The notes beneath the pieces are model-generated. The model searched no databases. It saw nothing but the letters and a program-made list of their open reading frames with translations, and had not been told where the DNA came from. Position numbers and translations under genes: made by a program. Positions 1-17,207 of a stretch of DNA of 56,687 bases are shown in pieces. Position 1 is the stretch's first letter, and each line of letters starts with the position of its first letter. Origin of the DNA: an uncultured virus (IMG/VR IMGVR_UViG_3300045995_000154) (taxonomy: Duplodnaviria; Heunggongvirae; Uroviricota; Caudoviricetes). Location of the stretch: IMG/VR virus record IMGVR_UViG_3300045995_000154; one strand, written 5' to 3'.

Positions 1-3000
1 CTACGTCTGTAGCTGTGGCTGTTGTGAATGTAGCTGTACTTGGAGTTACGTTACCAATTACTGTACCGTTAATGCTTGCTGCTGTGAAGCTGTCTGCTGT
101 TACGCTTGTGAACGAACCAGCTGCCCTAGTTGTACCACCAATTACTGTACCGTCAATTGTACCACCAGTAACTGTTACGTTGCTGCTGGACAAGTTAGTA
201 ATAGTACCTGTTGTAGCGCCTAATGTTGTTAAGCCTGTTACAGAACCGCTTGTAGCTTGTAAGTTAGCTGCTGTAGCTGTTGTGAAGCTACCTGTGCTGC
301 CGCTTACTGGAGTACCAGTAATTGCGCCGCCAGTTACTTGTGCATTAGCTGTTGTTACGGAACCAGCACTTGCTGCACCGCTTACTGCCAACGATGTCAA
401 TGTACCAACGGATGTTACATTTGGCTGTGCTGCTGTAGTCAATGTACCACCAACTGTCGTAGCTACTACGTTACCAGTGAATGCGCTAGCTACTAGGTCC
501 TTATTAAAGTTCCATGTGTCTGTTGCAAATGTGTACAAGATTGTCGCTGCTGCTGGGCCGTCAACTGTAATACCAGCGCCGTCTGCTGCCGCACCAGTCA
601 ATGCACCTTGTGCAATTGTGATGTTCTTATCAGCTACGGAAACTGTTGTGCTGTTAACTGTTGTAACGCTACCACCAACTGTCAAGTTACCTTCAACAAT
701 TGCGTCACCGCCAACGTTCAAGTTCTTAACAATACCAACACCGCCAGCAACCTTCAATGCGCCTGTTACAGTGCTTGTAGATTGTGTTGTGTCTGTGATT
801 GTTACTACATTGCTTGCGCTTAATGTTGTGAAAGCACCTGTGCTTGCAACGTTTGCGCCGATTGGTGTGTTATCAATACCACCAGTAGCACTGAAGCTTG
901 CTGCTGTTACTGTTGTGAACGTACCAGCTGCTGGAGTTACACCACCGATAACTGTACCGTTTACAGTACCGCCAGTGATTGTAGCTGCGCTTGTGCTTAA
1001 GCTGTTAGCTGTAGTTGCACCTAATGTAGCTGCACCAGAAACTGCAACGCTTGTCAATGTACCAACGGATGTTACATTTGGCTGTGCTGCTGTAGTTAAT
1101 GTACCACCAACGTTAGTTGCATTCATTGTTGTGAATGTACCTGCTGCCGCTGTTGTGCCACCAATAACTGTACCGTCAATTGCGCCACCGCTAATTTGTG
1201 CATTAGCTGTTGTCAATACTGTTGCACCAACTGTGCTGCCGCTTACTGTTGTACCAGTAATCGAACCGCCTGTCAATGTAACTGCGCCAGATGTCAATGT
1301 CGAGAACGAACCAGTGCTACCAGAGATTGGTGTGCTTGTAATAGCACCGCCAGTTACTTGTGCATTGCTTGTTGTCAAGCTAGTTGCAGAAACTGTAACA
1401 CCGCTTAGTGCGCCGCCAGTTGCTTGTACGTTAGCTGTCACTAAGCTGTTTACAGAAGCTGCACCAGTTGTACTCAATGTTGTAAACGCACCAGTGCTTG
1501 GTGTTGTTGCACCAATTGTAGTAGCATCAATTGTACCGCCAGTAATAACTGCACCACCTGTTGTTACAGAAGTTGCTGTTACGTTACCGCCAGTAATTTG
1601 TGCATTACCAGAAGCAAAGTTAGTTACTGTACCGTTTGTAGCAGTCAATGTTGTCAAGCCAATTACAGAACCACCAGTTACTTGTGCATTGCTTGTTGTC
1701 AATACTGTTGCACCAACTGTTGCACCAGAGATTGGTGTACCAGTGATTGTGCCGCCAGTAATTGTAACGTTGCCGGATGCAAAGTTTGTAGAAGTTAAAT
1801 CTGTTAAACCAGTTACGGAACCGCTTGTAGCTGTAATTGGACCAGTTGTTACGCTTGTGAACGCACCAGTAGAACCGCTAATTGGCGTATTGCTGATGTT
1901 ACCACCAGTGATAATTGCGTTAGCTGTGGACAACGATGTAACTGCAACGGTAACACCACTTAACGAACCGCCAGTGATTTGTGCGTTGCCTGTAGTCATT
2001 ACAGTGAACGAACCAGTGCTGCCAGAGATTGGTGTGCTTGTAATAGCACCACCGGAAATCTGTGCATTGCCAGTTGTAACTAATGTCGAACTTACTGCGC
2101 TTAAACCAGTAGCAGAACCACCAGTAATTGCTGCGCCAGCAGTTGTCATTGTTGTGAAACTACCTGTGGAGCCGCTGATTGGAGTGTCAACAATTGTACC
2201 ACCAGTTACTGCTACGTTGCCAGAAGACAAGTTAGTTACAGTACCTGTTACTGCGCTCATTGTTGTTAACCCAGTTGCTTTGCCGCCAGTTACTTGCGCA
2301 TTAGCAGTAAACAATGTTGTAAATGTACCGTCTGCCGCTGTTGTCGCACCAATGACTGTACCGTCAATTGTACCACCAGTTACTGTTACGTTACCAGAAG
2401 ACAAGTTAGTTACTGAACCAGTAGTTGCCGCAAAGTTTGTGATACCAGAGATGTTACCACCAGTTGCTTGCAAGTTAGCTGTAGCAATAGCACCGTGAAT
2501 TACGCCACCAACCCATAGATCCTTAACAATGCCAGCGCCGCCAGCAGTGTTTAAGCTACCAGTGGTTGTGCTTGTTGCATCAACTGCGCTTGTGATGGTT
2601 ACATCAGGAGCAACAAAGTTCTTGTTTACGTTCCATGTGTCTGCTGTGCCATCATATGTGAATGTTGCACCAGAACCAGCTACTGTTAAACCAGAGCCGT
2701 CAGCAGTAGCATTGTCAATCGCACCAACTGCAAGAGTGATGTTGTTGTCTACTGTAGATAAGCTTGTGGAATTAACTGTTGTAGTTGTACCGTTAACTGT
2801 TAAGTTGCCACCAATGATAGTGTCGCCACCAACGTTTAAGTTCTTAGCAATACCAACACCACCTGCTGTAACAATAGCGCCAGTAGTTGTACTTGTGCTT
2901 TGTACATTAGATGTGAATGTTGTCGCACCATTGGAAGTCAATGTTGTGAAAGCACCAGTGGAAGGAACTGCATTACCAACTGGAGTATTATTGATACTGT

Positions 3001-5938
3001 CAGATGTGAAGCTGCTTGCGCTTAATGTTGTAAAAGAACCAGTGCTGCCAGAGATTGGTGTGTTAGTAATTGCACCACCAGTTACTTGTGCATTGCTTGT
3101 TGTCAATACTGTTGCACCAACTGTCGAACCGCTAACTGGAGTACCAGTAATTGCGCCGCCAGTTACTTGAGCGTTAGCTGTAGTTACGCTTGTGGCATTA
3201 ACTGTAACACCGCTTAATGCGCCGCCAGTTGCTTGTAAGTTACCAGTTGTTGCTGTTGTGAAGCTACCTGTATCACCAGAGATTGGTGTGTTAGTAATTG
3301 CACCACCAGAAATCTGTGCGTTAGCAGTAGTCACCAAAGCAGAAGCTACGGATGTCATGCCAGTAGCAGAACCACCAGTTGCTTGCAAGTTGCTTGTAGT
3401 TACCGAAGTACCTTGTACAGTGGAGCCGCTGATTGGTGTACCAGTAATGTTACCACCTGTAATTTGTGCGCTACCAGTTGTTACTGTTGTAGAGCTTACA
3501 TTGGTCATACCAGTGATATTACCGCTTGTAGCTGTTAATCCACCAGTGCTTACGCTTGTGAATGTACCTGCTGCCGCTGTTGTAGCGCCGATTGGAGTTG
3601 CGTTGATAGCACCGCCACCGATAACTGCATTGTTAGTTGTAACATTTGTAGAGCTAACATCTGTCATTCCAGTTACGGAACCGCCAGTAGCTTGTAAGTT
3701 ACCTGTGCTTACGCTTGTGGCAGAAACAGTAGAACCGCTTACTGGTGTACCATAAATGTTGCCACCGGTGATAACTGCATTGCCTGTGCTGAAGTTAGTA
3801 GCAGAAGCTGTAGTTGCACTCAATGTTGTCAAGCCAGTTACAGAACCGCTTGTAGCTGTTAAGCCACCAGTTGTAACGTTAGTAAACGAACCAGTAGAAC
3901 CGCTGATTGGTGTGTTCTGGATATCACCACCAGTAACTTGTGCGTTAGCTGTTGTCAATACTGTGAACGAACCAGTGCTGCCGCTTACTGGAGTACCGCT
4001 GATATTACCACCAGTAATCTGTGCGTTAGCTGTTGTGAAGCTTGTAGCACCTAATGCTACGCCAGTTACGGAACCGCCAGTGATCTGTGCGTTGCTAGTT
4101 GTTACGCTTGTAGCGTCAACTGTCATACCGCTGATTGCACCGCCAGTTAATGTAGCTGAACCAGATGTCAATGTCGAGAACGAACCAGTGCTACCAGAGA
4201 TTGGGCTGCTTGTGATTGTAACACCAGACATTGTACCACCAGTAACTACTGCGTTAGCTGTTGTTACGCTTGTACCTTGTACAGTAGAACCGCTAACTGG
4301 GGTACCGCTGATTGCACCGCCAGTTACTTGAGCGTTAGCTGTTGTAACGGAAGTTGCAGAAACGGTAACACCGCTTAATGCGCCGCCAGTTGCTTGTAAG
4401 TTACCAGTTGTTGCTGTTGTGAACGAACCAGTGCTGCCGCTTACTGGTGTGCTAGTGATAGCGCCGCCAGAGATTTGAGCGTTGCCAGTTGTTACTGTTG
4501 TCGAGCTCAATGCTGTCATGCCAGTAGCAGAACCACCTGTAGCTTGTAAGTTACTTGTAGCAATGTTACCGTGGATTGTGCCGCCTACCCATAAGTCAAT
4601 AGCAACACCTGCACCACCAGCAGTTGTCAAGTCACCAGTTGTTGGGCTTGTGCTGTTTGTTACACCACTTAATGCTAATGCAGGAGCAGTAACATCTTTA
4701 TTTAAATTCCATGTATCTGTTGCTTGAACATAAGTTAATGTTGCGTTTGCACCAGCTACAGTTAAACCACCGCCGTCAGCTTGTGCTGCGGTTGTAGCGT
4801 CTTTGGCTACAGTGATGTTTAAGTCAGCAACCGCTACTGTTGTAGAGTTAACTGTTGTAGTTGTACCTGCAACTGTTAAGTTACCACCAATAACAGTATC
4901 GCCACCAACGTTTAAGTTCTTAGCAATACCAACACCGCCAGCAATAACTACAGCGCCATTGTTTGTCAATGTGCTTTGTGTAGCGTCTGTGAATGTTGTT
5001 GCGCCGTTAGCTGCTAACGATGTGAACGCACCAGTGGAAGGAGTTGCATTACCAACTGGAGTATTGTTGATGCTGCTGAATGTAGCAGGACCGCCAGTTA
5101 CTGTTGTGAATGTTGCTGCTGCAGGAGTTGTACCACCAATAACTGTACCGTTTACAGTGCCACCGGAGATAGTAGCTGTAGCGATAGTTGCTGTAGTAGC
5201 ACTTACGTTACCGTTGAATGTAGGAGCAGTTACAGCACCAGTTACAGCTAATGTACCAGAAACTGTTTCGTTACCAGCAACCACTACTGTGGTGCCAGTT
5301 AAAACAACGTTACCTGTACCATTGCCGCTTAAGTTCAAGCTACTGTTTGTAGTAGCTGCGGAAATAGTTGTGTCAGAAACTGTTAAGTTACCGAACGAAG
5401 CGTTGTTTGCAACACCCATTGTACCAGTGTATGTATAACCAACAATGTAAACAACCTTACCGCTTAAAGCTGTAGGGACGTTAGTGTCAGCAAAGTTTAA
5501 AACACCTGCTTGGTAGTCAAATATCCAAGCGTCATTGTTACCGGAACCGTCCGGTGCTAACAATGTACCAGTGCTTTGTGGATTTGCTGCGCCAGCTGTG
5601 TCAGCGTATGCCTTAACAGTGTAGCTCGAACCAAACTCTGGAGGAATCCATTTTGCGATACTTGTCAACCAAGTACGTGTAGATGGAACTACTGTAGGAT
5701 CAGCCGCAGCCATAATAGATGCGGTACCAGTGCGAACATGTACTACACCAGATGTAGAACCTGGTGCTGTACTTGGGATGTCACCAGATTGGTTCCATAG
5801 TGTGTCGCCACGAACCAATAGCGGGCTCGCTATTGCTTCGTTACTAGGAGATTTATTTCCTGCAACGTCTGTTTTAGTGACGCCGTATACTAACTTCTTG
5901 TACAGGTCGTCAATTTTTTGTGTATCGCTAATTGCCAT
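1..5938 (-). CDS. Giant Thr/Gly/Ser/Ala-rich repeat virion fibre/adhesin-like protein (>1979 aa, truncated at left window edge; not in ORF track)
   Basis: ATG at 5938-5936 after AGGAG RBS; starts MAISDTQKIDDLYKKLVYGVTKTD. The same frame reads ...GNVTPSTATFTTATATDV at position 2, and the track lists no stop-terminated ORF in this frame. Built of TGNAQITGG/TPISGSTGSF-type repeats; lies downstream of other structural genes. Confidence 0.9.
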   Translation of the reverse strand, partial: MAISDTQKIDDLYKKLVYGVTKTDVAGNKSPSNEAIASPLLVRGDTLWNQSGDIPSTAPGSTSGVVHVRTGTASIMAAADPTVVPSTRTWLTSIAKWIPPEFGSSYTVKAYADTAGAANPQSTGTLLAPDGSGNNDAWIFDYQAGVLNFADTNVPTALSGKVVYIVGYTYTGTMGVANNASFGNLTVSDTTISAATTNSSLNLSGNGTGNVVLTGTTVVVAGNETVSGTLAVTGAVTAPTFNGNVSATTATIATATISGGTVNGTVIGGTTPAAATFTTVTGGPATFSSINNTPVGNATPSTGAFTSLAANGATTFTDATQSTLTNNGAVVIAGGVGIAKNLNVGGDTVIGGNLTVAGTTTTVNSTTVAVADLNITVAKDATTAAQADGGGLTVAGANATLTYVQATDTWNLNKDVTAPALALSGVTNSTSPTTGDLTTAGGAGVAIDLWVGGTIHGNIATSNLQATGGSATGMTALSSTTVTTGNAQISGGAITSTPVSGSTGSFTTATTGNLQATGGALSGVTVSATSVTTANAQVTGGAISGTPVSGSTVQGTSVTTANAVVTGGTMSGVTITSSPISGSTGSFSTLTSGSATLTGGAISGMTVDATSVTTSNAQITGGSVTGVALGATSFTTANAQITGGNISGTPVSGSTGSFTVLTTANAQVTGGDIQNTPISGSTGSFTNVTTGGLTATSGSVTGLTTLSATTASATNFSTGNAVITGGNIYGTPVSGSTVSATSVSTGNLQATGGSVTGMTDVSSTNVTTNNAVIGGGAINATPIGATTAAAGTFTSVSTGGLTATSGNITGMTNVSSTTVTTGSAQITGGNITGTPISGSTVQGTSVTTSNLQATGGSATGMTSVASALVTTANAQISGGAITNTPISGDTGSFTTATTGNLQATGGALSGVTVNATSVTTANAQVTGGAITGTPVSGSTVGATVLTTSNAQVTGGAITNTPISGSTGSFTTLSASSFTSDSINNTPVGNAVPSTGAFTTLTSNGATTFTSNVQSTSTTTGAIVTAGGVGIAKNLNVGGDTIIGGNLTVNGTTTTVNSTSLSTVDNNITLAVGAIDNATADGSGLTVAGSGATFTYDGTADTWNVNKNFVAPDVTITSAVDATSTTTGSLNTAGGAGIVKDLWVGGVIHGAIATANLQATGGNISGITNFAATTGSVTNLSSGNVTVTGGTIDGTVIGATTAADGTFTTLFTANAQVTGGKATGLTTMSAVTGTVTNLSSGNVAVTGGTIVDTPISGSTGSFTTMTTAGAAITGGSATGLSAVSSTLVTTGNAQISGGAITSTPISGSTGSFTVMTTGNAQITGGSLSGVTVAVTSLSTANAIITGGNISNTPISGSTGAFTSVTTGPITATSGSVTGLTDLTSTNFASGNVTITGGTITGTPISGATVGATVLTTSNAQVTGGSVIGLTTLTATNGTVTNFASGNAQITGGNVTATSVTTGGAVITGGTIDATTIGATTPSTGAFTTLSTTGAASVNSLVTANVQATGGALSGVTVSATSLTTSNAQVTGGAITSTPISGSTGSFSTLTSGAVTLTGGSITGTTVSGSTVGATVLTTANAQISGGAIDGTVIGGTTAAAGTFTTMNATNVGGTLTTAAQPNVTSVGTLTSVAVSGAATLGATTANSLSTSAATITGGTVNGTVIGGVTPAAGTFTTVTAASFSATGGIDNTPIGANVASTGAFTTLSASNVVTITDTTQSTSTVTGALKVAGGVGIVKNLNVGGDAIVEGNLTVGGSVTTVNSTTVSVADKNITIAQGALTGAAADGAGITVDGPAAATILYTFATDTWNFNKDLVASAFTGNVVATTVGGTLTTAAQPNVTSVGTLTSLAVSGAASAGSVTTANAQVTGGAITGTPVSGSTGSFTTATAANLQATSGSVTGLTTLGATTGTITNLSSSNVTVTGGTIDGTVIGGTTRAAGSFTSVTADSFTAASINGTVIGNVTPSTATFTTATATDV
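707..4936. repeat. Three ~2.1-kb super-repeat modules plus near-identical 44-60 bp internal repeats in the giant fibre gene
   Basis: GGVGI(A/V)KNLNVGG...TVNSTT...ADG...DTWN block anchored at 707, 2825 and 4901 (spacing 2118 and 2076 nt). Exact repeats at 3204-3262/4365-4423 (59 bp) and 1287-1330/4161-4204 (44 bp); 395-454/1052-1111 differ by 1 mismatch. Confidence 0.85.
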
Positions 5939-11954: not shown

Positions 11955-12425
11955 TTAGTAAGATGCTACGTTAGCGTAAGCTGATGTAGCTGGGGTGTTA
12001 ACCTTGTACATAAACTTGTTGCCTGCGAAGTCATAAACGTGCTTTGTGCTGATACGACGAGCGTAGAAAGGTGCGCTTGCTGTGTCGTAACAAGCAATGC
12101 TTGCTTCGCCTGCTGCTAATGCGCCAGCGGCTTTGTTTACAAGTTGAACTACAGTGATATGAGTACCTGCTGCTGCGGAATCATCAACTAAGAACTTTGC
12201 AGAACCCTTTTGATTGATAACGAAGCCGTGTGCAACTGCTACACCAGCCAATGTCTTGTATTGTACGTCTATTGTCTTAACGCCCTTGCCGTTAACTGTG
12301 TTACTAACGCCACCCGTACCACCAAAACCAGACGCTTGACCTTGGTCTGCGCTGACTAAGCCGTCTACTGTGCTGCCCAATGGTGCTGCTGGTGCTTGAT
12401 TTGCTACTTTAATACCTTTTGCCAT
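11955..12425 (-). CDS. Putative abundant late structural protein (156 aa; probable start 12425 rather than 12488)
   Basis: AAGGAAAATAAA-ATG start MAKGIKVANQ; own late promoter (12505-12510) and own terminator. Confidence 0.7.
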   Translation of the reverse strand: MAKGIKVANQAPAAPLGSTVDGLVSADQGQASGFGGTGGVSNTVNGKGVKTIDVQYKTLAGVAVAHGFVINQKGSAKFLVDDSAAAGTHITVVQLVNKAAGALAAGEASIACYDTASAPFYARRISTKHVYDFAGNKFMYKVNTPATSAYANVASY

Positions 12426-12504
12426 TTTATTTTCCTTTGTTGTGAGCGTTCTAAGCCCCGCGGAGTGGCTACTCGCACGAGCTCTCATTTAAGAGCGAAC
12501 CAGA

Positions 12505-12557: not shown

Positions 12558-12634
12558 GCGTTATTAGCTCATTTGGTTAGAGCGGCGACTTCTAAACTCG
12601 ACGGTGCTCGGTTCGAATCCGGGATAACGCACCA
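12558..12634 (+). tRNA. tRNA with CUA anticodon (putative amber suppressor), encoded CCA
   Basis: Acceptor GCGTTAT/ATAACGC + A73 + CCA; D arm GCTC-ATTTGGTTA-GAGC; G26; anticodon arm GCGAC-TT CTA AA-CTCGA (CTA at 12592-12594, only central CGA/TCG pairs); 5-nt variable loop; T arm CTCGG-TTCGAAT-CCGGG. Confidence 0.85.
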
Positions 12635-12643
12635 AAGGACACT

Positions 12644-13036
12644 ATGAAAATTGGATTTACTGGTTCGAGAGAAGGAATGAGTGATTCCCAAGTCGAAAGC
12701 TTTTACATGCTTCTCGGTAAAATGGGTATGACTGAGTTTCATCATGGTGATTGCATGGGCGCAGACGCTGAGGCACACATGATAGTCCAAAACTCGTTCC
12801 CAGATGCCAGAATCGTAGTTCACCCACCAAAAGCACAGATAGCTCGTGCATATTGTGTGGGTGATGAGTTAAGACCCCAATTTGATTACTTGACGCGGGA
12901 CAAGAACATCGTAGATGAATGCGAGTTTTTGTTTGCTGCCCCAATGCGCAGCGTAGAAGAAGTACGATCTGGTACTTGGGCTACTGTGCGCTATGCTAGG
13001 AAAAAGTTTCGTCTGCACGTCGTGCTGCCGAGATAA
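12644..13036 (+). CDS. SLOG-superfamily (Smf/DprA/YspA-like) nucleotide-binding protein
   Basis: KIGFTGSR, HHGDCMGAD, RDKNIVD and SGTWATVRYARK motifs; AAGGA RBS immediately after tRNA CCA. Confidence 0.7.
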   Translation: MKIGFTGSREGMSDSQVESFYMLLGKMGMTEFHHGDCMGADAEAHMIVQNSFPDARIVVHPPKAQIARAYCVGDELRPQFDYLTRDKNIVDECEFLFAAPMRSVEEVRSGTWATVRYARKKFRLHVVLPR

Positions 13037-13116: not shown

Positions 13117-14001
13117 ATGATGTACAATCAAAAGCTCGTTGCGAGCCTAAAAGCTAACGGCAAAATCTTACGTGAGTTCAAGGATACAGTTTATATCCCA
13201 TTCGGCTCAGAATACTCCATAGTTCTTAAAAATCTCAACACGGTCCGCGCCATCGTAAACATTACGCTTGACGGTACTGATGTCTGTCCTGGCGGCTTAG
13301 TGCTGCTCGCAGGACAAACCATTGATTTGGAACGCTGGATCAAGAACGGCAACCTCTCAGCAGGCAATAAGTTCAAATTCATTGAGCGCACTGCACAAAT
13401 CGAAGCACATAAGGGCATTGGTATCGAAGACGGTATCATCAACATCTCGTATCAGTTCGAACACCTACCAATTACATTCGCTGGAACTACGATTTGGGAC
13501 TACCAACAAAACGTGTGGAAGCAGCAACATACTGGCTTGCGCCAAGATGGAATGATTTTCAAGGGACTAGGTAACACCATCTCCCAAGTTAACAATGCAC
13601 AATGGAGCAGCGGTGACGCCACCTTCAGCAGCAATGAGCCAGTACCATTCAAGTCGAGCATTGCTCGCAGTGTACTTGCGTCTGGTGCTTCCGCATCCGT
13701 TACCAATGCATCGTTGAACAATGTGACTGCGCAAGCACAGAACGTAAGCTATAACGATGCTGGCATCACCGTTGCTGGTTCCAAGAGCGATCAAAAGTTT
13801 GCTACTGCAAGCTGGTTCCCAGTGCTGCCAGAAAAGCATTCCATTGTGCTTAAACTGTTGGGTGAAACCCCTGACAATAAGCCCGTGCTGCTACCAGTTA
13901 CAGTAAAAGCAAAGCCAAAGTGCACTACTTGCGGCAAAATGAACAAAGCGAATGCAAAATTTTGTACAGAATGCGGCACAGCACTTGAAATCTTCGCGTA
14001 A
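13117..14001 (+). CDS. Hypothetical protein with C-terminal zinc ribbon (CTTC...CTEC)
   Basis: 294-aa ORF, AAGGA RBS, TAAATA at 13034-13039; KCTTCGKMNKANAKFCTECGTAL. Confidence 0.8.
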   Translation: MMYNQKLVASLKANGKILREFKDTVYIPFGSEYSIVLKNLNTVRAIVNITLDGTDVCPGGLVLLAGQTIDLERWIKNGNLSAGNKFKFIERTAQIEAHKGIGIEDGIINISYQFEHLPITFAGTTIWDYQQNVWKQQHTGLRQDGMIFKGLGNTISQVNNAQWSSGDATFSSNEPVPFKSSIARSVLASGASASVTNASLNNVTAQAQNVSYNDAGITVAGSKSDQKFATASWFPVLPEKHSIVLKLLGETPDNKPVLLPVTVKAKPKCTTCGKMNKANAKFCTECGTALEIFA

Positions 14002-14018
14002 TTGTGCTAGACTAAATA
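13985..14018 (+). promoter_or_regulatory. Overlapping sigma70-type (TTGAAA-N17-TAGACT, extended -10 TG) and late (TAAATA) promoters
   Basis: TTGAAA 13985-13990, TG 14005-14006, TAGACT 14008-14013, TAAATA 14013-14018; both would initiate at or near ATG 14023. Confidence 0.55.
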
Positions 14019-14022
14019 CATA

Positions 14023-14130
14023 ATGCAATAGATTAACTATTACCCTTTTAGCCCGGACCAGAGCTTCCAATTAGAGGAAGAGTTCTCGTACGGGCTTTTT
14101 TACGATCATTTTAACCAAGGAGAAATCAAA
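14023..14130 (+). promoter_or_regulatory. Leaderless amber-interrupted leader ORF (MQ*INYYPFSPDQSFQLEEEFSYGLFYDHFNQGEIK), in frame with pth2-like gene
   Basis: ATG CAA TAG at 14023-14031, then 33 sense codons to ATG 14131 (offset 108 nt). Confidence 0.6.
14050..14101 (+). terminator. Terminator/attenuator-like hairpin within the pth2 leader
   Basis: AGCCCG(14050-55)/CGGGCT(14091-96) base stem, inner AGAGC/GTTCT and TTCC/GGAA pairings, T-run 14096-14101. Confidence 0.6.
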
Positions 14131-14505
14131 ATGAAATAGATAGACGGCAAACACTACTGCTACACCTTTATTCGCTCGGACTTACCAATCGAGACTCAAA
14201 TTGTGCAAGCTGCCCATTCCGCACAGGAATCCGGGCGGGATTTCAAGAATCGAAATCCAACAACAAACACGTTCCTAGTATTACTAGAGGCTAAGAACGA
14301 AGCAGCGTTGATGAAGGCCGGTGATCACTTGATCAACAACGGCATTAAATTTCACATGTTCCACGAGCCTGACTATGAGACAGGGTTTACAAGTCTTACG
14401 ACTGAACCTATCTACTACGAAGAGCAAAAGGAAATTTTCAAGAAGTTTAGTTTGTACAAATTCCGTGCAAGCAAAGCATACAGCATAATGGATAAAGGAG
14501 AATAA
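14131..14505 (+). CDS. pth2: Pth2-superfamily peptidyl-tRNA hydrolase-like protein with in-frame TAG at codon 3
   Basis: AAGGAGA RBS then ATG AAA TAG ATA GAC..., in frame with the 14203 ORF. Readthrough gives MK*IDGKHYCYTFIRSDLPIETQIVQAAHSAQE...LVLLEAKNEAAL...FHEPDYETGFTSLTTEP...FKKFSLY, i.e. the R.DL...Q..H, VL....E..L and EPD....T....P pattern of Pth2-like proteins. The track's GTG start would delete the RSDL strand. Confidence 0.8.
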
Positions 14506-14506
14506 A

Positions 14507-15079
14507 ATGGAAATGGTTTGTAAAGAAGTTGTGTTTCACTTCAACAAGAAGCACTTAGAAGACCCCACTATCCCAATGTGGGTTATCAAAACTAAAGGCA
14601 AAACATACTACGTCGAGCACGTTGAATGTAACATGCCTTGGAGCACTAAAGAGACTAAGGATAACCCGCACACCAAAGGTAGCTTTAAGTTCAAGGACTG
14701 TCACTTGACGATAGACGACAATAACGAGGCGACAATACGTTCTGCGACGAATCACGATAAGAGTGTTTTGCGCAATACCGCTAAGGGCATTACCCGTGTT
14801 ATTACTAAGTGGGGCAAGCAGTTGCAGGACTCGTTACAAAGCTTAGAGGTTAAGCATGGGCCCATAAAAACTATTGGTGGTGTTTGCACTACTACTTTCT
14901 ATGTAACTGATGTACACAAGAAGGATGAGTTGACTGCACTGTTGCTCACTGTAAAGGACTTGCGTGAGTTGATGCCGAACGAGCCGTACTATAAAATGTA
15001 TGATGAGGCGGTTACTAAGAACGTTGACTACTTTGACGAGGATGAGTATTATGATGAGTCTGACGATTCCGAAGAGTGA
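14507..15079 (+). CDS. Hypothetical phage protein with acidic tail
   Basis: 190-aa ORF, AAGGAG RBS overlapping the pth2 3' end. Confidence 0.8.
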   Translation: MEMVCKEVVFHFNKKHLEDPTIPMWVIKTKGKTYYVEHVECNMPWSTKETKDNPHTKGSFKFKDCHLTIDDNNEATIRSATNHDKSVLRNTAKGITRVITKWGKQLQDSLQSLEVKHGPIKTIGGVCTTTFYVTDVHKKDELTALLLTVKDLRELMPNEPYYKMYDEAVTKNVDYFDEDEYYDESDDSEE

Positions 15080-15212
15080 CGTAACCGCAGTGCTTAAATA
15101 TTTGCAAGAGAATAAGATTAAGCACTACCCGTTTACCAAATTAGTTAACGGGTACGAGATCACAGTAGAGAAGGATGAGCTTGTTAGCTTCTTACTTTTG
15201 AAGTATACTTAA
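15051..15212 (+). CDS. Small hypothetical protein (~53 aa)
   Basis: GAGG RBS before ATGATG at 15051; stop overlaps the convergent stop of the radical SAM gene. Confidence 0.5.
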   Translation: MMSLTIPKSDVTAVLKYLQENKIKHYPFTKLVNGYEITVEKDELVSFLLLKYT

Positions 15213-17116
15213 GATTGAATCCATATTATCTTTTTGTTCAGGGCAGTTTGGGCATTGGTCCACTGCCCCGTTCCTACATAGTGATGTGTAAAGCTTTTGT
15301 CTGGGTGTATAGGTAAGCGCCATTCGTCGTTGTCTTGCAACGCAAATACAAAGTCTGCATTCCACTCACCGTCATCAGTTATACTAAAGTTGTATGTTGC
15401 ATCGTAACGGTCAACCATCATAACGTCACCAAATGCGACTAAGTCTTCCTCGCGGTTGAAACGCAGTGTAATCTCAAAGCCACCAGCTACTCTATACATT
15501 AGCCGTAAAAATGCCCATATCTCATTCATTAGCGTGTCAGCAAAATTACCAAGATCAGTTTTGATAATGTTGAAGTCAAAATCATCTAGCGTAATATTGT
15601 CTGGCGGGTTAACTAACTTTAGCTTAGATAGTGTATAGTGCGAGTCAATGTCGCGGCGCTGAGTATTGAATAACACGCCGTTATTATAGCAAATGTCTAG
15701 CCAGATATTAAGCAGTTTCATTCTCACAAGCCTGTGCACTTTTGTATTACTCAGATCTTTAGAATACCACCATCCCCAAAACTTGTCGTCCCAATTGCTC
15801 ATGCTGTATTGCTCTCGGTTGAACTCAAAGTCTGTTCCTCTGCTATCGCCCAATGTCATGCCCGTGCTTATTAGATCCATGTAGTTACGGTTGTTCCACA
15901 GTAGTATCAAGCTGTCATTGTGTGCTTTGATGTTCTCATTAGGAAAGCCTACTATCCAGTTAACATGCACAGTAATGCCTGCGTTTTTACAATCGCGCAT
16001 GTTGGCATCTATCTCAGAGACCATAACCTTCTTCTTCATTAAGTCCAGTACTTTTTGTGAGCCGCTTTCAACGCCAAAGCTTAGATAGTGGGCGCCGCTG
16101 TCCTTTAAGTCTTTGAAGTAATCTGCATCCATACGCCCGTCACAGCGTACATACCCCATCCAACTAATATTGAACTGCTTCTCAATGGCGCCTTTTGCAA
16201 ACGTGCGCAACTCTTTGAGATTGCCGTTAACTAAGCTATCAATAAACCATACATAGGTGATACCGTAGTTCTTAATTTGGTCTTCTACTTCGTCCAATAT
16301 GCGGTTAGCTTGGCGGTCTCTAAACTTCCAGAACCAAGTCTCTGTGCAGAAGCTACACTTAGCCACACAGCCGCGGTTGATCTCTGCGCTAACGCCCGTA
16401 CCGTTTGTATACAAAGACAAATCAAATTCGCTGTAGTCAGGGAAAGGCAAGCTATCAATATCAACGCGGGAATCACTGTACGAGGTACCTAGTTTCTTAG
16501 TCTCTGGCAGTACGTTGTTTTCAAAGTTCTCAAGCATGTCTAACAGGATTTGCTCTCCCTCACCAACAACGTAGTAATCAATTTCGTCTATTGCCTCATA
16601 CTCTGGATTGTGGCAGGATGGTCCACCTGCAATAACTAGCACAAATGGCAAGCGTTTCTTAAGTTCACGTATCATCCAATACGTAGGTACTTTGTTTGTG
16701 TCGTAAATGCTAAATCCAACAACGGTAGGATTTGATGCCACAATCTTGTCTAAGTAAGCAGCATAATGAGGCAATGCCGCATCGTGCAATTTGTCTTGGT
16801 AGTTGCCATCGTTCCACCAATAGTAATTGATAGAGTCCCACGCTTTGTCTAAGCCATTAGATTTGAATGTGGTATACAAGTCTACGTTGAAATCAAAGGA
16901 TCTAGTAGCATAGCCTGCTTCTTTAGTTAAGGCAGATAACCTAGCGATGTTATAAGGTGCAAAGTATACGCCCCAACAACCCATCATAACTAGAGTAAGC
17001 CTAGTTTTCCTAGTAACGTTGTGTTCGTATATTACGGGATTTACGTTTTTACGTCGTGGTTTAGCAGTGTTTGCTACCATGGTCTCAGCTGACCATACGT
17101 GTTTGTCTTGTTCCAT
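15209..17116 (-). CDS. Cobalamin-binding-domain radical SAM enzyme (class B-like)
   Basis: VVGFSIY...IAGGP...VVGEGEQ B12-binding domain, LPFPDY, RGCVAKCSFC (CxxxCxxC), FGVESGSQKVLDLMKK, WIVGFPNE; TAAGTA 5 nt before ATG. Confidence 0.9.
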   Translation of the reverse strand: MEQDKHVWSAETMVANTAKPRRKNVNPVIYEHNVTRKTRLTLVMMGCWGVYFAPYNIARLSALTKEAGYATRSFDFNVDLYTTFKSNGLDKAWDSINYYWWNDGNYQDKLHDAALPHYAAYLDKIVASNPTVVGFSIYDTNKVPTYWMIRELKKRLPFVLVIAGGPSCHNPEYEAIDEIDYYVVGEGEQILLDMLENFENNVLPETKKLGTSYSDSRVDIDSLPFPDYSEFDLSLYTNGTGVSAEINRGCVAKCSFCTETWFWKFRDRQANRILDEVEDQIKNYGITYVWFIDSLVNGNLKELRTFAKGAIEKQFNISWMGYVRCDGRMDADYFKDLKDSGAHYLSFGVESGSQKVLDLMKKKVMVSEIDANMRDCKNAGITVHVNWIVGFPNENIKAHNDSLILLWNNRNYMDLISTGMTLGDSRGTDFEFNREQYSMSNWDDKFWGWWYSKDLSNTKVHRLVRMKLLNIWLDICYNNGVLFNTQRRDIDSHYTLSKLKLVNPPDNITLDDFDFNIIKTDLGNFADTLMNEIWAFLRLMYRVAGGFEITLRFNREEDLVAFGDVMMVDRYDATYNFSITDDGEWNADFVFALQDNDEWRLPIHPDKSFTHHYVGTGQWTNAQTALNKKIIWIQS

Positions 17117-17135
17117 ACGAATACTTAGTCAAACA

Positions 17136-17175
17136 AAAAGGGCAGTAGTCATTAACTAAAGCCCGATTTGCCCTT
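17136..17175 (-). terminator. Possible terminator after 17208 gene
   Basis: Minus strand AAGGGCA...TGCCCTT followed by TTTG-TTT; large loop. Confidence 0.4.
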
Positions 17176-17207
17176 CCCATCCCGAGTGGTATACAGTATT
17201 TAGTATA

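What the first reader, a model, noticed from the sequence alone, without database searches (positions are those of the whole stretch)
14013..14130. Readthrough-controlled attenuator: leaderless MQ* leader spanning a terminator
ATG 14023 sits 4 nt after TAAATA, the same geometry as the leaderless gp25 gene, and also follows a sigma70-like promoter. After TAG at codon 3 the frame stays open for 33 codons across a hairpin plus U-run (14050-14101) and joins the pth2 ATG in frame. Inference: ribosomes that stop at UAG let the terminator form, while readthrough ribosomes melt it and allow transcription of pth2 and downstream genes.
Basis: partly seen in the sequence, partly recalled or inferred. Interest (0 to 1): 0.8.

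Follow-up and report, generated by a model that had tools for sequence, protein, structure and literature searches.

The report
Amber-gated leader of phage pth2
A freshwater phage places a two-codon mini-gene ending in a UAG stop, then a transcription terminator, in front of a tRNA-recycling enzyme gene whose third codon is also UAG, so the enzyme is probably made only when the phage's own stop-reading tRNA is working.

Summary
TAAATA is at 14013-18. The mini-ORF ATG-CAA-TAG is at 14023-31. The hairpin 14050-95 (-19.5 kcal/mol, z -3.8) is followed by six T. The mini-ORF frame stays open for 33 codons and joins the pth2 ATG at 14131 in frame.

The phage's only solid tRNA has a CUA anticodon (12558-12634). 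The pth2 gene, whose PTH2 fold I confirmed, has UAG at codon 3. Across the clade, an "ATG + 1-3 codons + TAG" start marks the first gene of this operon: the neighbouring 190-aa gene (p190) in 31 of 31 distinct relatives, or pth2 when pth2 lies upstream.

Two divergent phages (L081, L086) keep the same leader: mini-ORF with UAG, a terminator of different sequence, then SD and amber-start pth2. In all three, only the mini-ORF frame is open across the terminator (joint chance about 0.002).

So the leader looks selected, and a suppressor-tRNA-dependent gate is well supported. Whether it acts on transcription termination is inferred. Published kinetics argue against coupling on a leaderless transcript.

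This scan has already noted amber-gated pth2 with tRNA-CUA on other DNA. The terminator leader and the p190 client are new here. I found no paper describing either.

The parts
12558..12634 (+). tRNA with anticodon CUA (amber suppressor). It is the only solid tRNA of the 134-kb genome, on the same strand as pth2 and 1.4 kb upstream of it.
   Evidence: ARAGORN. Rfam tRNA 51.5 bits, E 1.4e-9. A tRNA-CUA lies in the same position in 51 of 80 relatives' loci. The nearest blastn hits are a phage 'tRNA-TERM' and phage tRNA-Lys genes. Discriminator is A73, with mismatches at both ends of the anticodon stem. Which amino acid it carries was not determined.
13117..14001 (+). Upstream gene: 294-aa protein with a C-terminal zinc ribbon, stop TAA 13999-14001.
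   Evidence: ORF list. Pfam Zn_Ribbon_1, E 3e-7. 139 relatives in IMG/VR, of which 80 were fetched.
14013..14018 (+). TAAATA box, the genome's T4-type late-promoter-like motif, 4 nt before the mini-ORF ATG.
   Evidence: 41 of 81 genomic copies lie in the 9% non-genic DNA. TAAATA-N4-ATG occurs 6 times against 1.4 expected, and 5 of those open real ORFs. The transcription start site was not measured.
14023..14031 (+). Mini-ORF ATG CAA TAG (Met-Gln-amber), with no SD.
   Evidence: Sequence. Counterparts are ATG TTA TAG ATT in L081 and ATG TTA TAG ATC in L086, 107 and 93 nt before their pth2 ATG.
14032..14130 (+). 33 stop-free codons in the mini-ORF frame, running across the terminator and the SD into the pth2 ATG.
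   Evidence: P(open) is 0.113 by shuffling, and the other two frames have stops. The codon-usage log-odds is +6.7 over the 35 codons between TAG 14029 and TAG 14137, similar per codon to real genes here. The peptide is not conserved between the three phages.
14050..14101 (+). Intrinsic terminator: interrupted 46-nt hairpin (14050-14095) plus T6 (14096-14101).
   Evidence: -19.5 kcal/mol, z -3.8. L081 has a hairpin of -13.1 (z -2.95) plus TTTTCTT at the same place, and L086 one of -16.8 (z -5.2) plus TTTCTTTTT; both differ in sequence from this one. The simple consensus scan did not list it.
14117..14122 (+). Shine-Dalgarno AAGGAG, 8 nt before the pth2 ATG.
   Evidence: Sequence. The same SD-ATG-x-TAG layout is seen in relatives.
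14131..14505 (+). pth2-like gene (124 codons) with in-frame TAG at codon 3 (14137-14139).
   Evidence: The N-terminal strand of the fold starts at about residue 8, so the GTG at 14203 cannot be the start. Relatives begin M-x(1-4)-TAG in 15 of 75 IMG/VR loci and in 11 of the 14 nearest, in L081, and in phages GAP32, Serratia BF and RsoM2USA.
14507..15079 (+). 190-aa gene of unknown function, called p190 in this report. It has its own SD and starts 1 nt after the pth2 stop. In relatives that lack an upstream pth2, this gene carries the amber start.
   Evidence: The AF2 model (pLDDT 79.5) has no PDB match at E <= 0.001. No Pfam or PHROG hit.

Best explanation
Window 14013-14130 is the 5' leader of an operon (pth2, then the 190-aa gene p190) that the phage gates with its own amber-suppressor tRNA. 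There are two UAG gates in series, one on each side of an intrinsic terminator.

Gate 1 is a start of the leaderless type used by five other ORFs of this genome (TAAATA, 4 nt, AUG), followed by one sense codon and UAG. Gate 2 is SD, AUG, AAA, UAG at the head of pth2.

Without an active tRNA-CUA, ribosomes leave at the first UAG, 18 nt before the stem. The terminator then forms and most transcripts end at 14101. Any transcript that gets through gives only fMet-Lys at pth2, and the untranslated pth2 RNA would add ordinary nonsense polarity on p190.

With an active tRNA-CUA, ribosomes run on over the terminator stem to the pth2 start. Here and in L086 they arrive in frame. In L081 they stop 2 nt before the pth2 AUG. 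This would lower termination, or melt the stem and hand ribosomes to pth2. The second UAG is then read, so Pth2 and p190 are made.

Shown: all the sequence parts; the tRNA; the PTH2 fold; the clade-wide amber start on the first cistron; and conservation of the leader layout and its open frame in three phages.

Inferred: that the tRNA is charged and suppresses; that the mini-ORF is translated; and that its translation changes termination.

My odds: pth2 depends on tRNA-CUA, 0.85. The mini-ORF is a selected part of the leader, 0.6.
For: (1) The tRNA-CUA is the only solid tRNA. TAG ends 3 of 111 crude gene calls, against TAA 91 and TGA 17.

(2) pth2 is the only gene of the genome whose stretch upstream of a bounding TAG scores as coding. 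The scan finds it as the only such gene in the genome with an SD and a long stretch before the first canonical start.

(3) The amber start is a design, not an error. p190 begins ATG, 1-3 codons, TAG, then ATT GAA TAT GCx TGT in 31 of 31 distinct starts (46 loci), and also in L163 and L269. Where an amber-start pth2 lies upstream (window, L081, L084, L085), p190 has a plain ATG in 4 of 4. Internal TAGs with conserved sequence after them occur in the pth2 genes of L084 and L109. Three of 3 cultured phages with an amber-start pth2 carry a tRNA-CUA.

(4) The base after the TAG is A in the 31 p190 starts, a purine in 18 of 19 pth2 starts, and A in all 3 mini-ORFs (read off).

(5) The leader layout is conserved in L081 and L086, with unrelated terminator stems that are all significantly stable.

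(6) Only the mini-ORF frame is open across the terminator in 3 of 3 leaders, while 6 of 6 other frames have stops. The P values are 0.113, 0.116 and 0.180, with a product of 0.0024.

(7) The unit sits behind three different upstream genes.

(8) The U-run-to-SD gap is 15 nt, which leaves no room for a promoter.

(9) Ribosomes close behind RNA polymerase do repress intrinsic terminators in E. coli (PMC4824070, abstract and passages; PMC5021804, abstract only).
Against: There is no RNA evidence of any kind.

There are only three leaders, and those of L081 and L086 share stretches of sequence, so they are not independent. The joint P is therefore optimistic.

L081's mini-ORF is out of frame with pth2.

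Most amber-start pth2 genes lack the mini-ORF: 13 of 16 from metagenomes and 3 of 3 from cultured phages. The leader is therefore dispensable for the amber gate.

In E. coli, a terminator within the first 100 bp of a coding region works efficiently because the ribosome has not yet caught up, unless the polymerase pauses (PMC4824070). Here the terminator lies at +27 to +78 of the putative leaderless RNA, and I could not identify a pause site.

The MFE and centroid structures show no alternative anti-terminator pairing.

The sigma70-like promoter is at chance level.

The tRNA's anticodon stem has two mismatches, and its charging is unknown.
Confidence: 0.5

Rival explanations
1. An ordinary intergenic region. 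The hairpin is a leaky terminator that sets a lower level for the genes behind it. The mini-ORF is a scar: a second copy of the clade's amber-start cassette, left when the pth2 cassette recombined into the amber start of p190. It has no function of its own. Only the UAG at pth2 codon 3 matters.
For: ATG CAA TAG ATT is letter for letter the p190 start of L064, and ATG TTA TAG ATT is that of L011. That is what a recombination scar at that site would look like. In relatives without pth2, a hairpin also sits between the zinc-ribbon gene and the amber start of p190 (L023, L041). Most amber-start pth2 genes have no mini-ORF. The kinetic argument from PMC4824070 also applies.
Against: A neutral 11-12-nt scar should not survive divergence to 49-54% protein identity while the stems next to it were replaced. 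The open frame in 3 of 3 leaders, against stops in 6 of 6 other frames, would be unexplained. The SD of the supposed old start is gone in all three; in its place stands a -10-like box 4-9 nt before the ATG: TAAATA here and in L086, TATAAT in L081. The unit is found behind three different genes.
Confidence: 0.3
2. The promoter box plus terminator make a small RNA of about 80 nt (14023-14101) that acts on its own. The mini-ORF and open frame would be incidental.
For: A -10-like box directly before a strong terminator is the layout of an sRNA gene, and it is present in all three phages. The same promoter-then-terminator order is seen before the radical-SAM gene.
Against: The stems are not conserved in sequence, and no Rfam family matches. 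What is conserved is ATG-NNN-TAG and the open frame, which are translation features.
Confidence: 0.08
3. The two 'AUG, one codon, UAG' units are natural minigenes of the lambda bar kind. When UAG is not suppressed, they release fMet-Gln-tRNA and fMet-Lys-tRNA by drop-off. This would tie up host tRNAs or report on peptidyl-tRNA hydrolase capacity, and the Pth2 behind them would deal with such products.
For: The pth2 start is a strong SD plus AUG AAA UAG, which is the sequence definition of a two-codon minigene. The gene behind it has the peptidyl-tRNA hydrolase fold. Pep-tRNA drop-off is frequent in early elongation and is recycled by Pth (PMC10192219, abstract only; PMC2490762, abstract only). 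That bar minigenes are AUG AUA stop is recalled, not checked here.
Against: p190, which has no known link to peptidyl-tRNA, carries the same start in 31 of 31 relatives. The sense codon varies freely (K, Q, S, A, T, L, N, E). The conserved tRNA-CUA points to readthrough as the purpose.
Confidence: 0.07
4. The real product is a longer Pth2 that starts at 14023 and contains two amber-encoded residues. Under this reading the 'terminator' is simply coding sequence.
For: The mini-ORF is in frame here and in L086, and the leader has a positive codon-usage score.
Against: L081 is out of frame. The 28-33-residue extension is not conserved at all. A strong SD at the right spacing precedes ATG 14131. 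Relatives' Pth2 proteins start 6-10 residues before the first strand of the fold.
Confidence: 0.05

Closest known systems
pyrBI / pyrE-type ribosome-mediated attenuators of E. coli
   Same: A leader reading frame runs across an intrinsic terminator that precedes the structural gene. A ribosome close behind the polymerase prevents the terminator stem from forming. There is no alternative anti-terminator hairpin.
   Different: There, the input is UTP-dependent pausing of the polymerase; here it would be whether a UAG at codon 3 is read by a phage tRNA. The start here has no SD (leaderless type). No pause site is known. A second UAG gate sits on the structural gene itself. The pyrBI details are recalled, and are mentioned in passages of PMC4824070 that I read.
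trp/his/phe leader-peptide attenuators
   Same: A short leader ORF with regulatory codons decides whether a downstream terminator acts.
   Different: Those use hungry sense codons and mutually exclusive hairpins. Here the regulatory codon is a stop codon, and no competing hairpin is seen.
Stop-codon-recoded phages with suppressor tRNAs (TAG read as an amino acid; Borges et al. preprint 10.1101/2021.08.26.457843, abstract and one passage seen)
   Same: A phage-encoded tRNA-CUA and in-frame TAG are used to make expression depend on the phage's own translation parts.
   Different: There, in-frame stops are spread over many, mostly late, genes. Here the genome is standard code. TAG is rare but still ends 3 of 111 called genes, and in-frame TAG is confined to codon 3 of one gene plus its leader.
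Amber-gated Pth2-like genes next to tRNA-CUA in large standard-code phages
   Same: The same gene family, the same early UAG, and the same pairing with a suppressor tRNA. I re-found this independently here in IMG/VR loci and in GAP32, Serratia BF and RsoM2USA.
   Different: Those notes, as far as shown to me, do not describe a mini-ORF plus terminator leader, the p190 client family, or the rule that the gate sits on the first cistron.
Lambda bar minigenes
   Same: SD, AUG, one sense codon, stop; and a functional link to peptidyl-tRNA hydrolase.
   Different: bar units end in UAA or UGA and are followed by nothing (recalled). Here the stop is UAG, a long conserved frame follows, and a matching suppressor tRNA is encoded.

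Membership tests
Ribosome-mediated transcription attenuator (pyrBI/pyrE type) | Intrinsic terminator between the promoter and the structural gene | tested here: met
   Hairpin of -19.5 kcal/mol (z -3.8) plus T6 at 14050-14101, ending 15 nt before the SD. Counterparts exist in L081 and L086.
Ribosome-mediated transcription attenuator (pyrBI/pyrE type) | Leader ORF with a usable start whose frame extends over the terminator | tested here: met
   TAAATA-N4-ATG is a start geometry used by 5 other ORFs here. The frame is open over the terminator in 3 of 3 leaders. Translation itself has not been shown.
Ribosome-mediated transcription attenuator (pyrBI/pyrE type) | Polymerase pausing or another means to couple the first ribosome to the polymerase within a short leader | not testable with these tools
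   No pause predictor or transcript data were available. PMC4824070 indicates that without pausing such a terminator is not repressed.
Ribosome-mediated transcription attenuator (pyrBI/pyrE type) | Termination efficiency responds to leader translation | not testable with these tools
   This needs reporters or Term-seq.
trp-type attenuator | Alternative anti-terminator hairpin competing with the terminator | tested here: not met
   The MFE and centroid of 14002-14140 show only a 5-bp stem at 14027-14041 and the terminator. This is a limited test on a single sequence.
Stop-codon-recoded phage (TAG reassigned) | In-frame TAG in many genes | tested here: not met
   Only pth2, of 111 crude gene calls, has a coding-like extension through a TAG. 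The large real ORFs carry no TAG when TAG is read as sense.
Stop-codon-recoded phage (TAG reassigned) | Phage-encoded tRNA with anticodon CUA | tested here: met
PTH2 peptidyl-tRNA hydrolase (PF01981) | Sequence match above Pfam's curated cut-off | tested here: inconclusive
   The window protein scores 19.5 bits against a cut-off of 23. 19 of 50 relatives match at E <= 0.01, the best at 6.8e-10. A profile search against PDB sequences gives only E 0.45 to 1rlk.
PTH2 peptidyl-tRNA hydrolase (PF01981) | PTH2 fold | tested here: met
   AF2 pLDDT 89.9. The Foldseek top 12 rows are PTH2 or PTH2-like structures (1q7s, 2zv3, 3erj, 1wn2, 1rlk, 1xty, 2gax), E 2e-6 to 4e-4, TM 0.6-0.75.
PTH2 peptidyl-tRNA hydrolase (PF01981) | Catalytic residues and hydrolase activity on peptidyl-tRNA | not tested
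   The invariant residues of the phage family (R12, D14, H26, E76 in A2 numbering) were not mapped onto the known active site.
Two-codon minigene (lambda bar type) | SD, AUG, one sense codon, stop | tested here: met
   AAGGAG, 8 nt, AUG AAA UAG. The upstream AUG CAA UAG lacks an SD.
Two-codon minigene (lambda bar type) | Peptidyl-tRNA drop-off and toxicity when Pth is limiting | not testable with these tools
   This needs expression in a pth(ts) laboratory strain.

The most novel reading that the evidence does not exclude
The lone amber-suppressor tRNA of this standard-code phage exists to run a dedicated two-gate switch. Reading the UAG of a leaderless two-codon ORF carries ribosomes over a terminator (suppressor-dependent anti-termination), and a second UAG at codon 3 then licenses translation of a peptidyl-tRNA hydrolase. 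The unsuppressed 'AUG-x-UAG' starts act as natural minigenes whose dropped peptidyl-tRNAs are that enzyme's substrate. The module would therefore sense the balance between RF1, the suppressor tRNA and Pth activity in the infected cell, and set the level of Pth2 and p190 accordingly. This would give the 'orphan' tRNA-CUA genes of many large phages a defined client and logic.
Probability: 0.15. Interest if true: 0.9.

Novelty: new variant of a known kind. Interest (0 to 1): 0.7.

Why it matters
Many large phages that use the standard genetic code carry a single amber-suppressor tRNA with no known target. The XacN1 authors wrote that they could not find one (PMC5852040, passage seen).

This work shows that the target is a start-proximal UAG on the first gene of a small operon: a PTH2-fold enzyme or the neighbouring p190 family. 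Gene callers truncate or miss these genes in GAP32, Serratia BF and RsoM2USA.

The window adds a candidate for something not yet described: a terminator leader whose control codon is a stop codon read by a phage tRNA. That would be transcription attenuation driven by suppression rather than by amino-acid or nucleotide supply.

It can be tested directly with simple reporters in laboratory E. coli. It also bears on annotation, since hidden amber-start genes are being missed. And it bears on how phages time or condition the expression of enzymes that act on the translation machinery.

Tried and rejected
RNA evidence. The look-up of sequencing runs listed no RNA holder. Laying the contigs of four DNA runs gave no contig across 14070-14160 and only one variant elsewhere, so nothing can be said about the leader.

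More relatives.
- Single-protein scans of IMG/VR with Pth2 found none, and with p190 found one.
- The one metagenome scan gave 3 loci, of which only L081 was useful.
- The genome-contig scan gave one short contig, which I did not examine.
- A pattern taken from the L081/L086 leaders found only L086's own contig.
- A general pattern 'T-run, SD, ATG NNN TAGAT' gave 96 stretches. Of the 80 fetched, 5 had a long frame after the TAG. One was p190, none was pth2, and none had the leader layout.

L097 has ATG CGC ATG TAG 119 nt before its pth2 but no terminator-like stem, so I did not count it. L011 (p190 family) has an ATG-NNN-TAG 74 nt upstream, which I did not follow up.

The window's blastn against 50,697 phage records matched only the tRNA.

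No Rfam family matches the leader.

The p190 fold gave no PDB match at E <= 0.001, so its function stays unknown.

The tRNA's amino-acid identity could not be settled. It looks Lys-like by blastn and by its A73 discriminator, but this is weak.

My gene calls are a crude codon-usage caller, so counts 'of 111' are approximate.

I rejected GTG 14203 as the pth2 start, because it would delete the first strand of the fold.

I rejected a sequencing error as the cause of the TAG, because the same design recurs in dozens of independent contigs and in three cultured phages.

The search of earlier findings by place returned nothing for this genome.

Literature searches for a link between Pth2, an amber start and a suppressor tRNA in phages found none. 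The library lacks most subscription journals.
Full report
WHAT IS THERE. The window is the reverse strand of 43111-99797 of a 134,351-bp virus contig. The contig has a T4-type major capsid gene (Gp23, E 7e-98) and a gp25 baseplate gene.

Reading 13500-14700 confirms every letter of the finding. The zinc-ribbon gene ends with TAA at 13999-14001. TAAATA lies at 14013-18. The mini-ORF ATG CAA TAG lies at 14023-31. A long interrupted hairpin at 14050-95 is followed by TTTTTT at 14096-14101. AAGGAG is at 14117-22, then ATG 14131, AAA, and TAG at 14137-39, followed by an open frame to 14505.

14023 and 14131 are in the same frame. The 33 codons between the two TAGs hold no stop, while the other two frames hold one and three stops.

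The hairpin folds at -19.5 kcal/mol against -10.1 +/- 2.5 for shuffles. The simple consensus terminator scan missed it because the stem is interrupted.

THE PROMOTER BOX AND THE 'LEADERLESS' GEOMETRY ARE REAL FEATURES OF THIS GENOME. TAAATA is under-represented overall: 81 copies against 126 +/- 12 expected. Yet 41 of the 81 copies lie in the 9% of DNA outside my crude gene calls, usually 22-42 nt before a start codon. That is the behaviour of a T4-type late promoter element (the T4 consensus TATAAATA is recalled, not checked here).

TAAATA-N4-ATG occurs six times against 1.4 expected. Five of the six open ORFs of 33, 55, 114, 122 (gp25) and 523 codons. The sixth is the mini-ORF. So the mini-ORF has the start geometry of genuine genes. 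One caveat: at gp25 the TAA inside TAAATA is the upstream gene's stop, so re-initiation rather than a 5'-terminal AUG could serve there.

The only solid tRNA of the genome has anticodon CUA (12558-12634, same strand). TAG ends only 3 of 111 crude gene calls. The large real genes hold no in-frame TAG.

pth2 is the one gene whose sequence before a bounding TAG looks coding. Its product is a PTH2-fold protein. Pfam is sub-threshold for the window protein but positive for 19 of 50 relatives. The AF2 model has pLDDT 89.9 and hits PTH2 structures at TM 0.6-0.75. The first strand of the fold starts about residue 8, so the gene must start at ATG 14131 and pass the TAG.

THE AMBER START IS A FAMILY-WIDE DESIGN. 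The zinc-ribbon gene has many relatives in IMG/VR, and 80 loci were fetched. Of these, 51 carry a tRNA-CUA just upstream.

In these phages the 190-aa neighbour gene (p190, window 14507-15079) begins SD, ATG, 1-3 codons, TAG, then ATT GAA TAT GCx TGT in 31 of 31 distinct start regions, representing 46 loci. It does so again in L163 and L269.

In the window, p190 starts with a plain ATG (MEMVCKE...), and pth2, carrying the amber start, sits directly in front. The same holds for L081, L084 and L085. So the gate sits on the first cistron of the operon. One gate would govern the whole operon through ordinary nonsense polarity and coupling (inference).

A profile scan for Pth2-like genes gave 75 loci. 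Fifteen of them begin M-x(1-4)-TAG, including 11 of the 14 nearest to the window. Nineteen hold a tRNA-CUA within 3 kb. Two relatives have a further internal TAG with conserved sequence beyond it.

Cultured phages GAP32, Serratia BF and RsoM2USA have the same amber start. Their records annotate the gene truncated or not at all, and each encodes a tRNA-CUA. The base after the TAG is almost always a purine. This context is recalled to favour suppression over release; I did not check it here.

Earlier notes of this scan had already recorded amber-gated Pth2-like genes beside tRNA-CUA on other DNA. I reached the same result independently. I found no paper that reports it. The XacN1 paper states that no target could be found for that phage's two tRNA-CUA genes.

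THE LEADER ITSELF. Two phages share the window's leader layout.
- L081 is a metagenome contig whose Pth2 is 54% identical. It reads: upstream gene stop, TATAAT, 7 nt, ATG TTA TAG ATT, 30 nt, a hairpin (-13.1 kcal/mol, z -2.95) plus TTTTCTT, AAAGGAG, then ATG TCA TAG ATT starting pth2. The two ATGs are 107 nt apart.
- L086 is an IMG/VR contig whose Pth2 is 49% identical. It reads: TAAATA, 9 nt, ATG TTA TAG ATC, 30 nt, a hairpin (-16.8 kcal/mol, z -5.2) plus TTTCTTTTT, AAAGGAGG, then ATG AAG TAG starting pth2. The two ATGs are 93 nt apart.

The three terminator stems are unrelated in sequence. The genes upstream of the unit differ in all three, and downstream L086 differs from the other two. The unit therefore belongs to pth2, not to the gene before it.

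In each leader the mini-ORF frame is the only one without a stop across the terminator. It is open for 33 codons here and 28 in L086, both joining pth2 in frame. In L081 it is open for 31 codons and ends at a TAA 2 nt before the pth2 ATG. The chance values by shuffling are 0.113, 0.180 and 0.116, with a product of 0.0024. The peptides are not alike, so it is the act of translation, not a product, that would be selected.

The U-run-to-SD gap leaves no room for a promoter (15 nt here). Every pth2 mRNA must therefore cross the terminator.

HOW IT MOST LIKELY WORKS. I commit to a suppressor-tRNA-gated leader. UAG gate 1 decides whether ribosomes cross the terminator region. UAG gate 2 decides whether Pth2 is made.

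The part I consider well supported (0.85) is that pth2 expression needs the tRNA-CUA. That the mini-ORF is a selected, working part I put at 0.6. The remainder of the 0.6 covers melting of the stem on full-length RNA and delivery of ribosomes to the pth2 start.

The main argument against the transcriptional version is kinetic. In E. coli, terminators more than about 30 bp past a stop codon reach their full efficiency. Terminators within the first 100 bp of a coding region are not repressed, because the first ribosome has not caught up, unless the polymerase pauses (PMC4824070, abstract and passages). Here the stem lies at +27 to +78 of the putative leaderless RNA, and 18 nt past the UAG.

Ribosomes arriving from the zinc-ribbon gene (stop 21 nt before the mini-ORF ATG) could re-initiate and stay closer to the polymerase. 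That is speculation.

RIVALS. The scar model (0.3) is attractive because the mini-ORFs are letter-identical to p190 starts of other clade members, and because most amber-start pth2 genes do without a mini-ORF. But it does not explain why the motif and the open frame survive while the neighbouring stems were replaced. It also does not explain why the SD was exchanged for a -10-like box in all three. The sRNA, minigene and long-isoform readings are listed with their tests.

LIMITS. There are three leaders, two of them related to each other. Gene calls are crude. There are no RNA data. The Logan contigs break inside the leader. The tRNA's charging identity is unknown. The function of p190 is unknown. 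Supplements of the cited papers were not consulted.

VERDICT. It is a new variant of known kinds (ribosome-mediated attenuation; suppressor-gated phage genes). Interest 0.7.

Noticed in passing
window 14507-15079; loci L001-L074, L163, L269: The 190-aa gene of unknown function (p190) starts ATG, 1-3 codons, TAG, then IEYACKDVVFHFNKK in 31 of 31 distinct relatives. It starts with a plain ATG only where an amber-start pth2 lies upstream (window, L081, L084, L085). The AF2 model has no PDB match.
   Followed up: partly
L159 (GAP32), L160 (Serratia BF), L162 (RsoM2USA): Cultured jumbo phages have Pth2-like genes starting MAQ*, MTH* and ML*. The records annotate them truncated (GAP32_397) or not at all. 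Each phage encodes a tRNA-CUA. RsoM2USA has a second possible amber-start gene about 0.9 kb downstream (MKS*ISKEE..., L162 2412), which is annotated from an internal ATG.
   Followed up: partly
L084-L158: 19 of 75 Pth2-like loci hold a tRNA-CUA within 3 kb. The rate is about the same whether or not the pth2 has an amber start (4 of 15 against 15 of 60). This hints at a functional tie between the enzyme and the suppressor tRNA beyond the gate. No baseline rate was computed.
   Followed up: no
L084 about 3262; L109 (internal): Further in-frame TAG codons lie inside pth2, with conserved protein sequence after them.
   Followed up: partly
window 17117-17207, minus strand (upstream of the radical-SAM/B12 gene 15209-17116): The same unusual order as at pth2: upstream gene stop, TAAATA 6 nt later, then a GGGCA...TGCCC hairpin with TTTTTGTTT, then the ATG. 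In other words, a late-promoter box before a terminator-like stem.
   Followed up: partly
G000:C1:119675-119721 (outside the window): A TAAATA box sits in the loop of a 7-bp stem (GTCCTAG...CTAGGAC) followed by TTTTTC and the ATG. Late transcripts starting in the loop would lack the 5' arm. This resembles the T4 lysozyme and soc arrangement (recalled).
   Followed up: no
L084 2790-2985 and L085 2780-2976: These two amber-start pth2 genes have, instead of a mini-ORF, a shared structured leader of about 130 nt between a TAAATA box and the SD. It was not compared with Rfam.
   Followed up: no
window 12423-12496, minus strand: A weak match to Rfam freshwater-2 RNA (30.6 bits, gathering score 49.9, E 0.035) at the 5' end of the gene 11955-12488.
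   Followed up: no
window 12644-13036: The 130-aa gene right after the tRNA has only a weak PHROG hit (phrog_289, 'GTP-binding domain', E 3.6e-5). The tRNA, this gene, the zinc-ribbon gene, pth2 and p190 all lie on one strand and may form one transcription unit.
   Followed up: no
window 14070-14160: Logan contigs of three independent freshwater runs all stop at 14062-14069 and resume at 14160-14199. The cause is unknown (strain variation, the hairpin, or low depth).
   Followed up: no
window 3-2498, plus strand: An 831-codon open frame lies antisense to the giant gene on the minus strand (2-5938 and beyond; 2695 codons in the genome). It is probably a compositional artefact.
   Followed up: no
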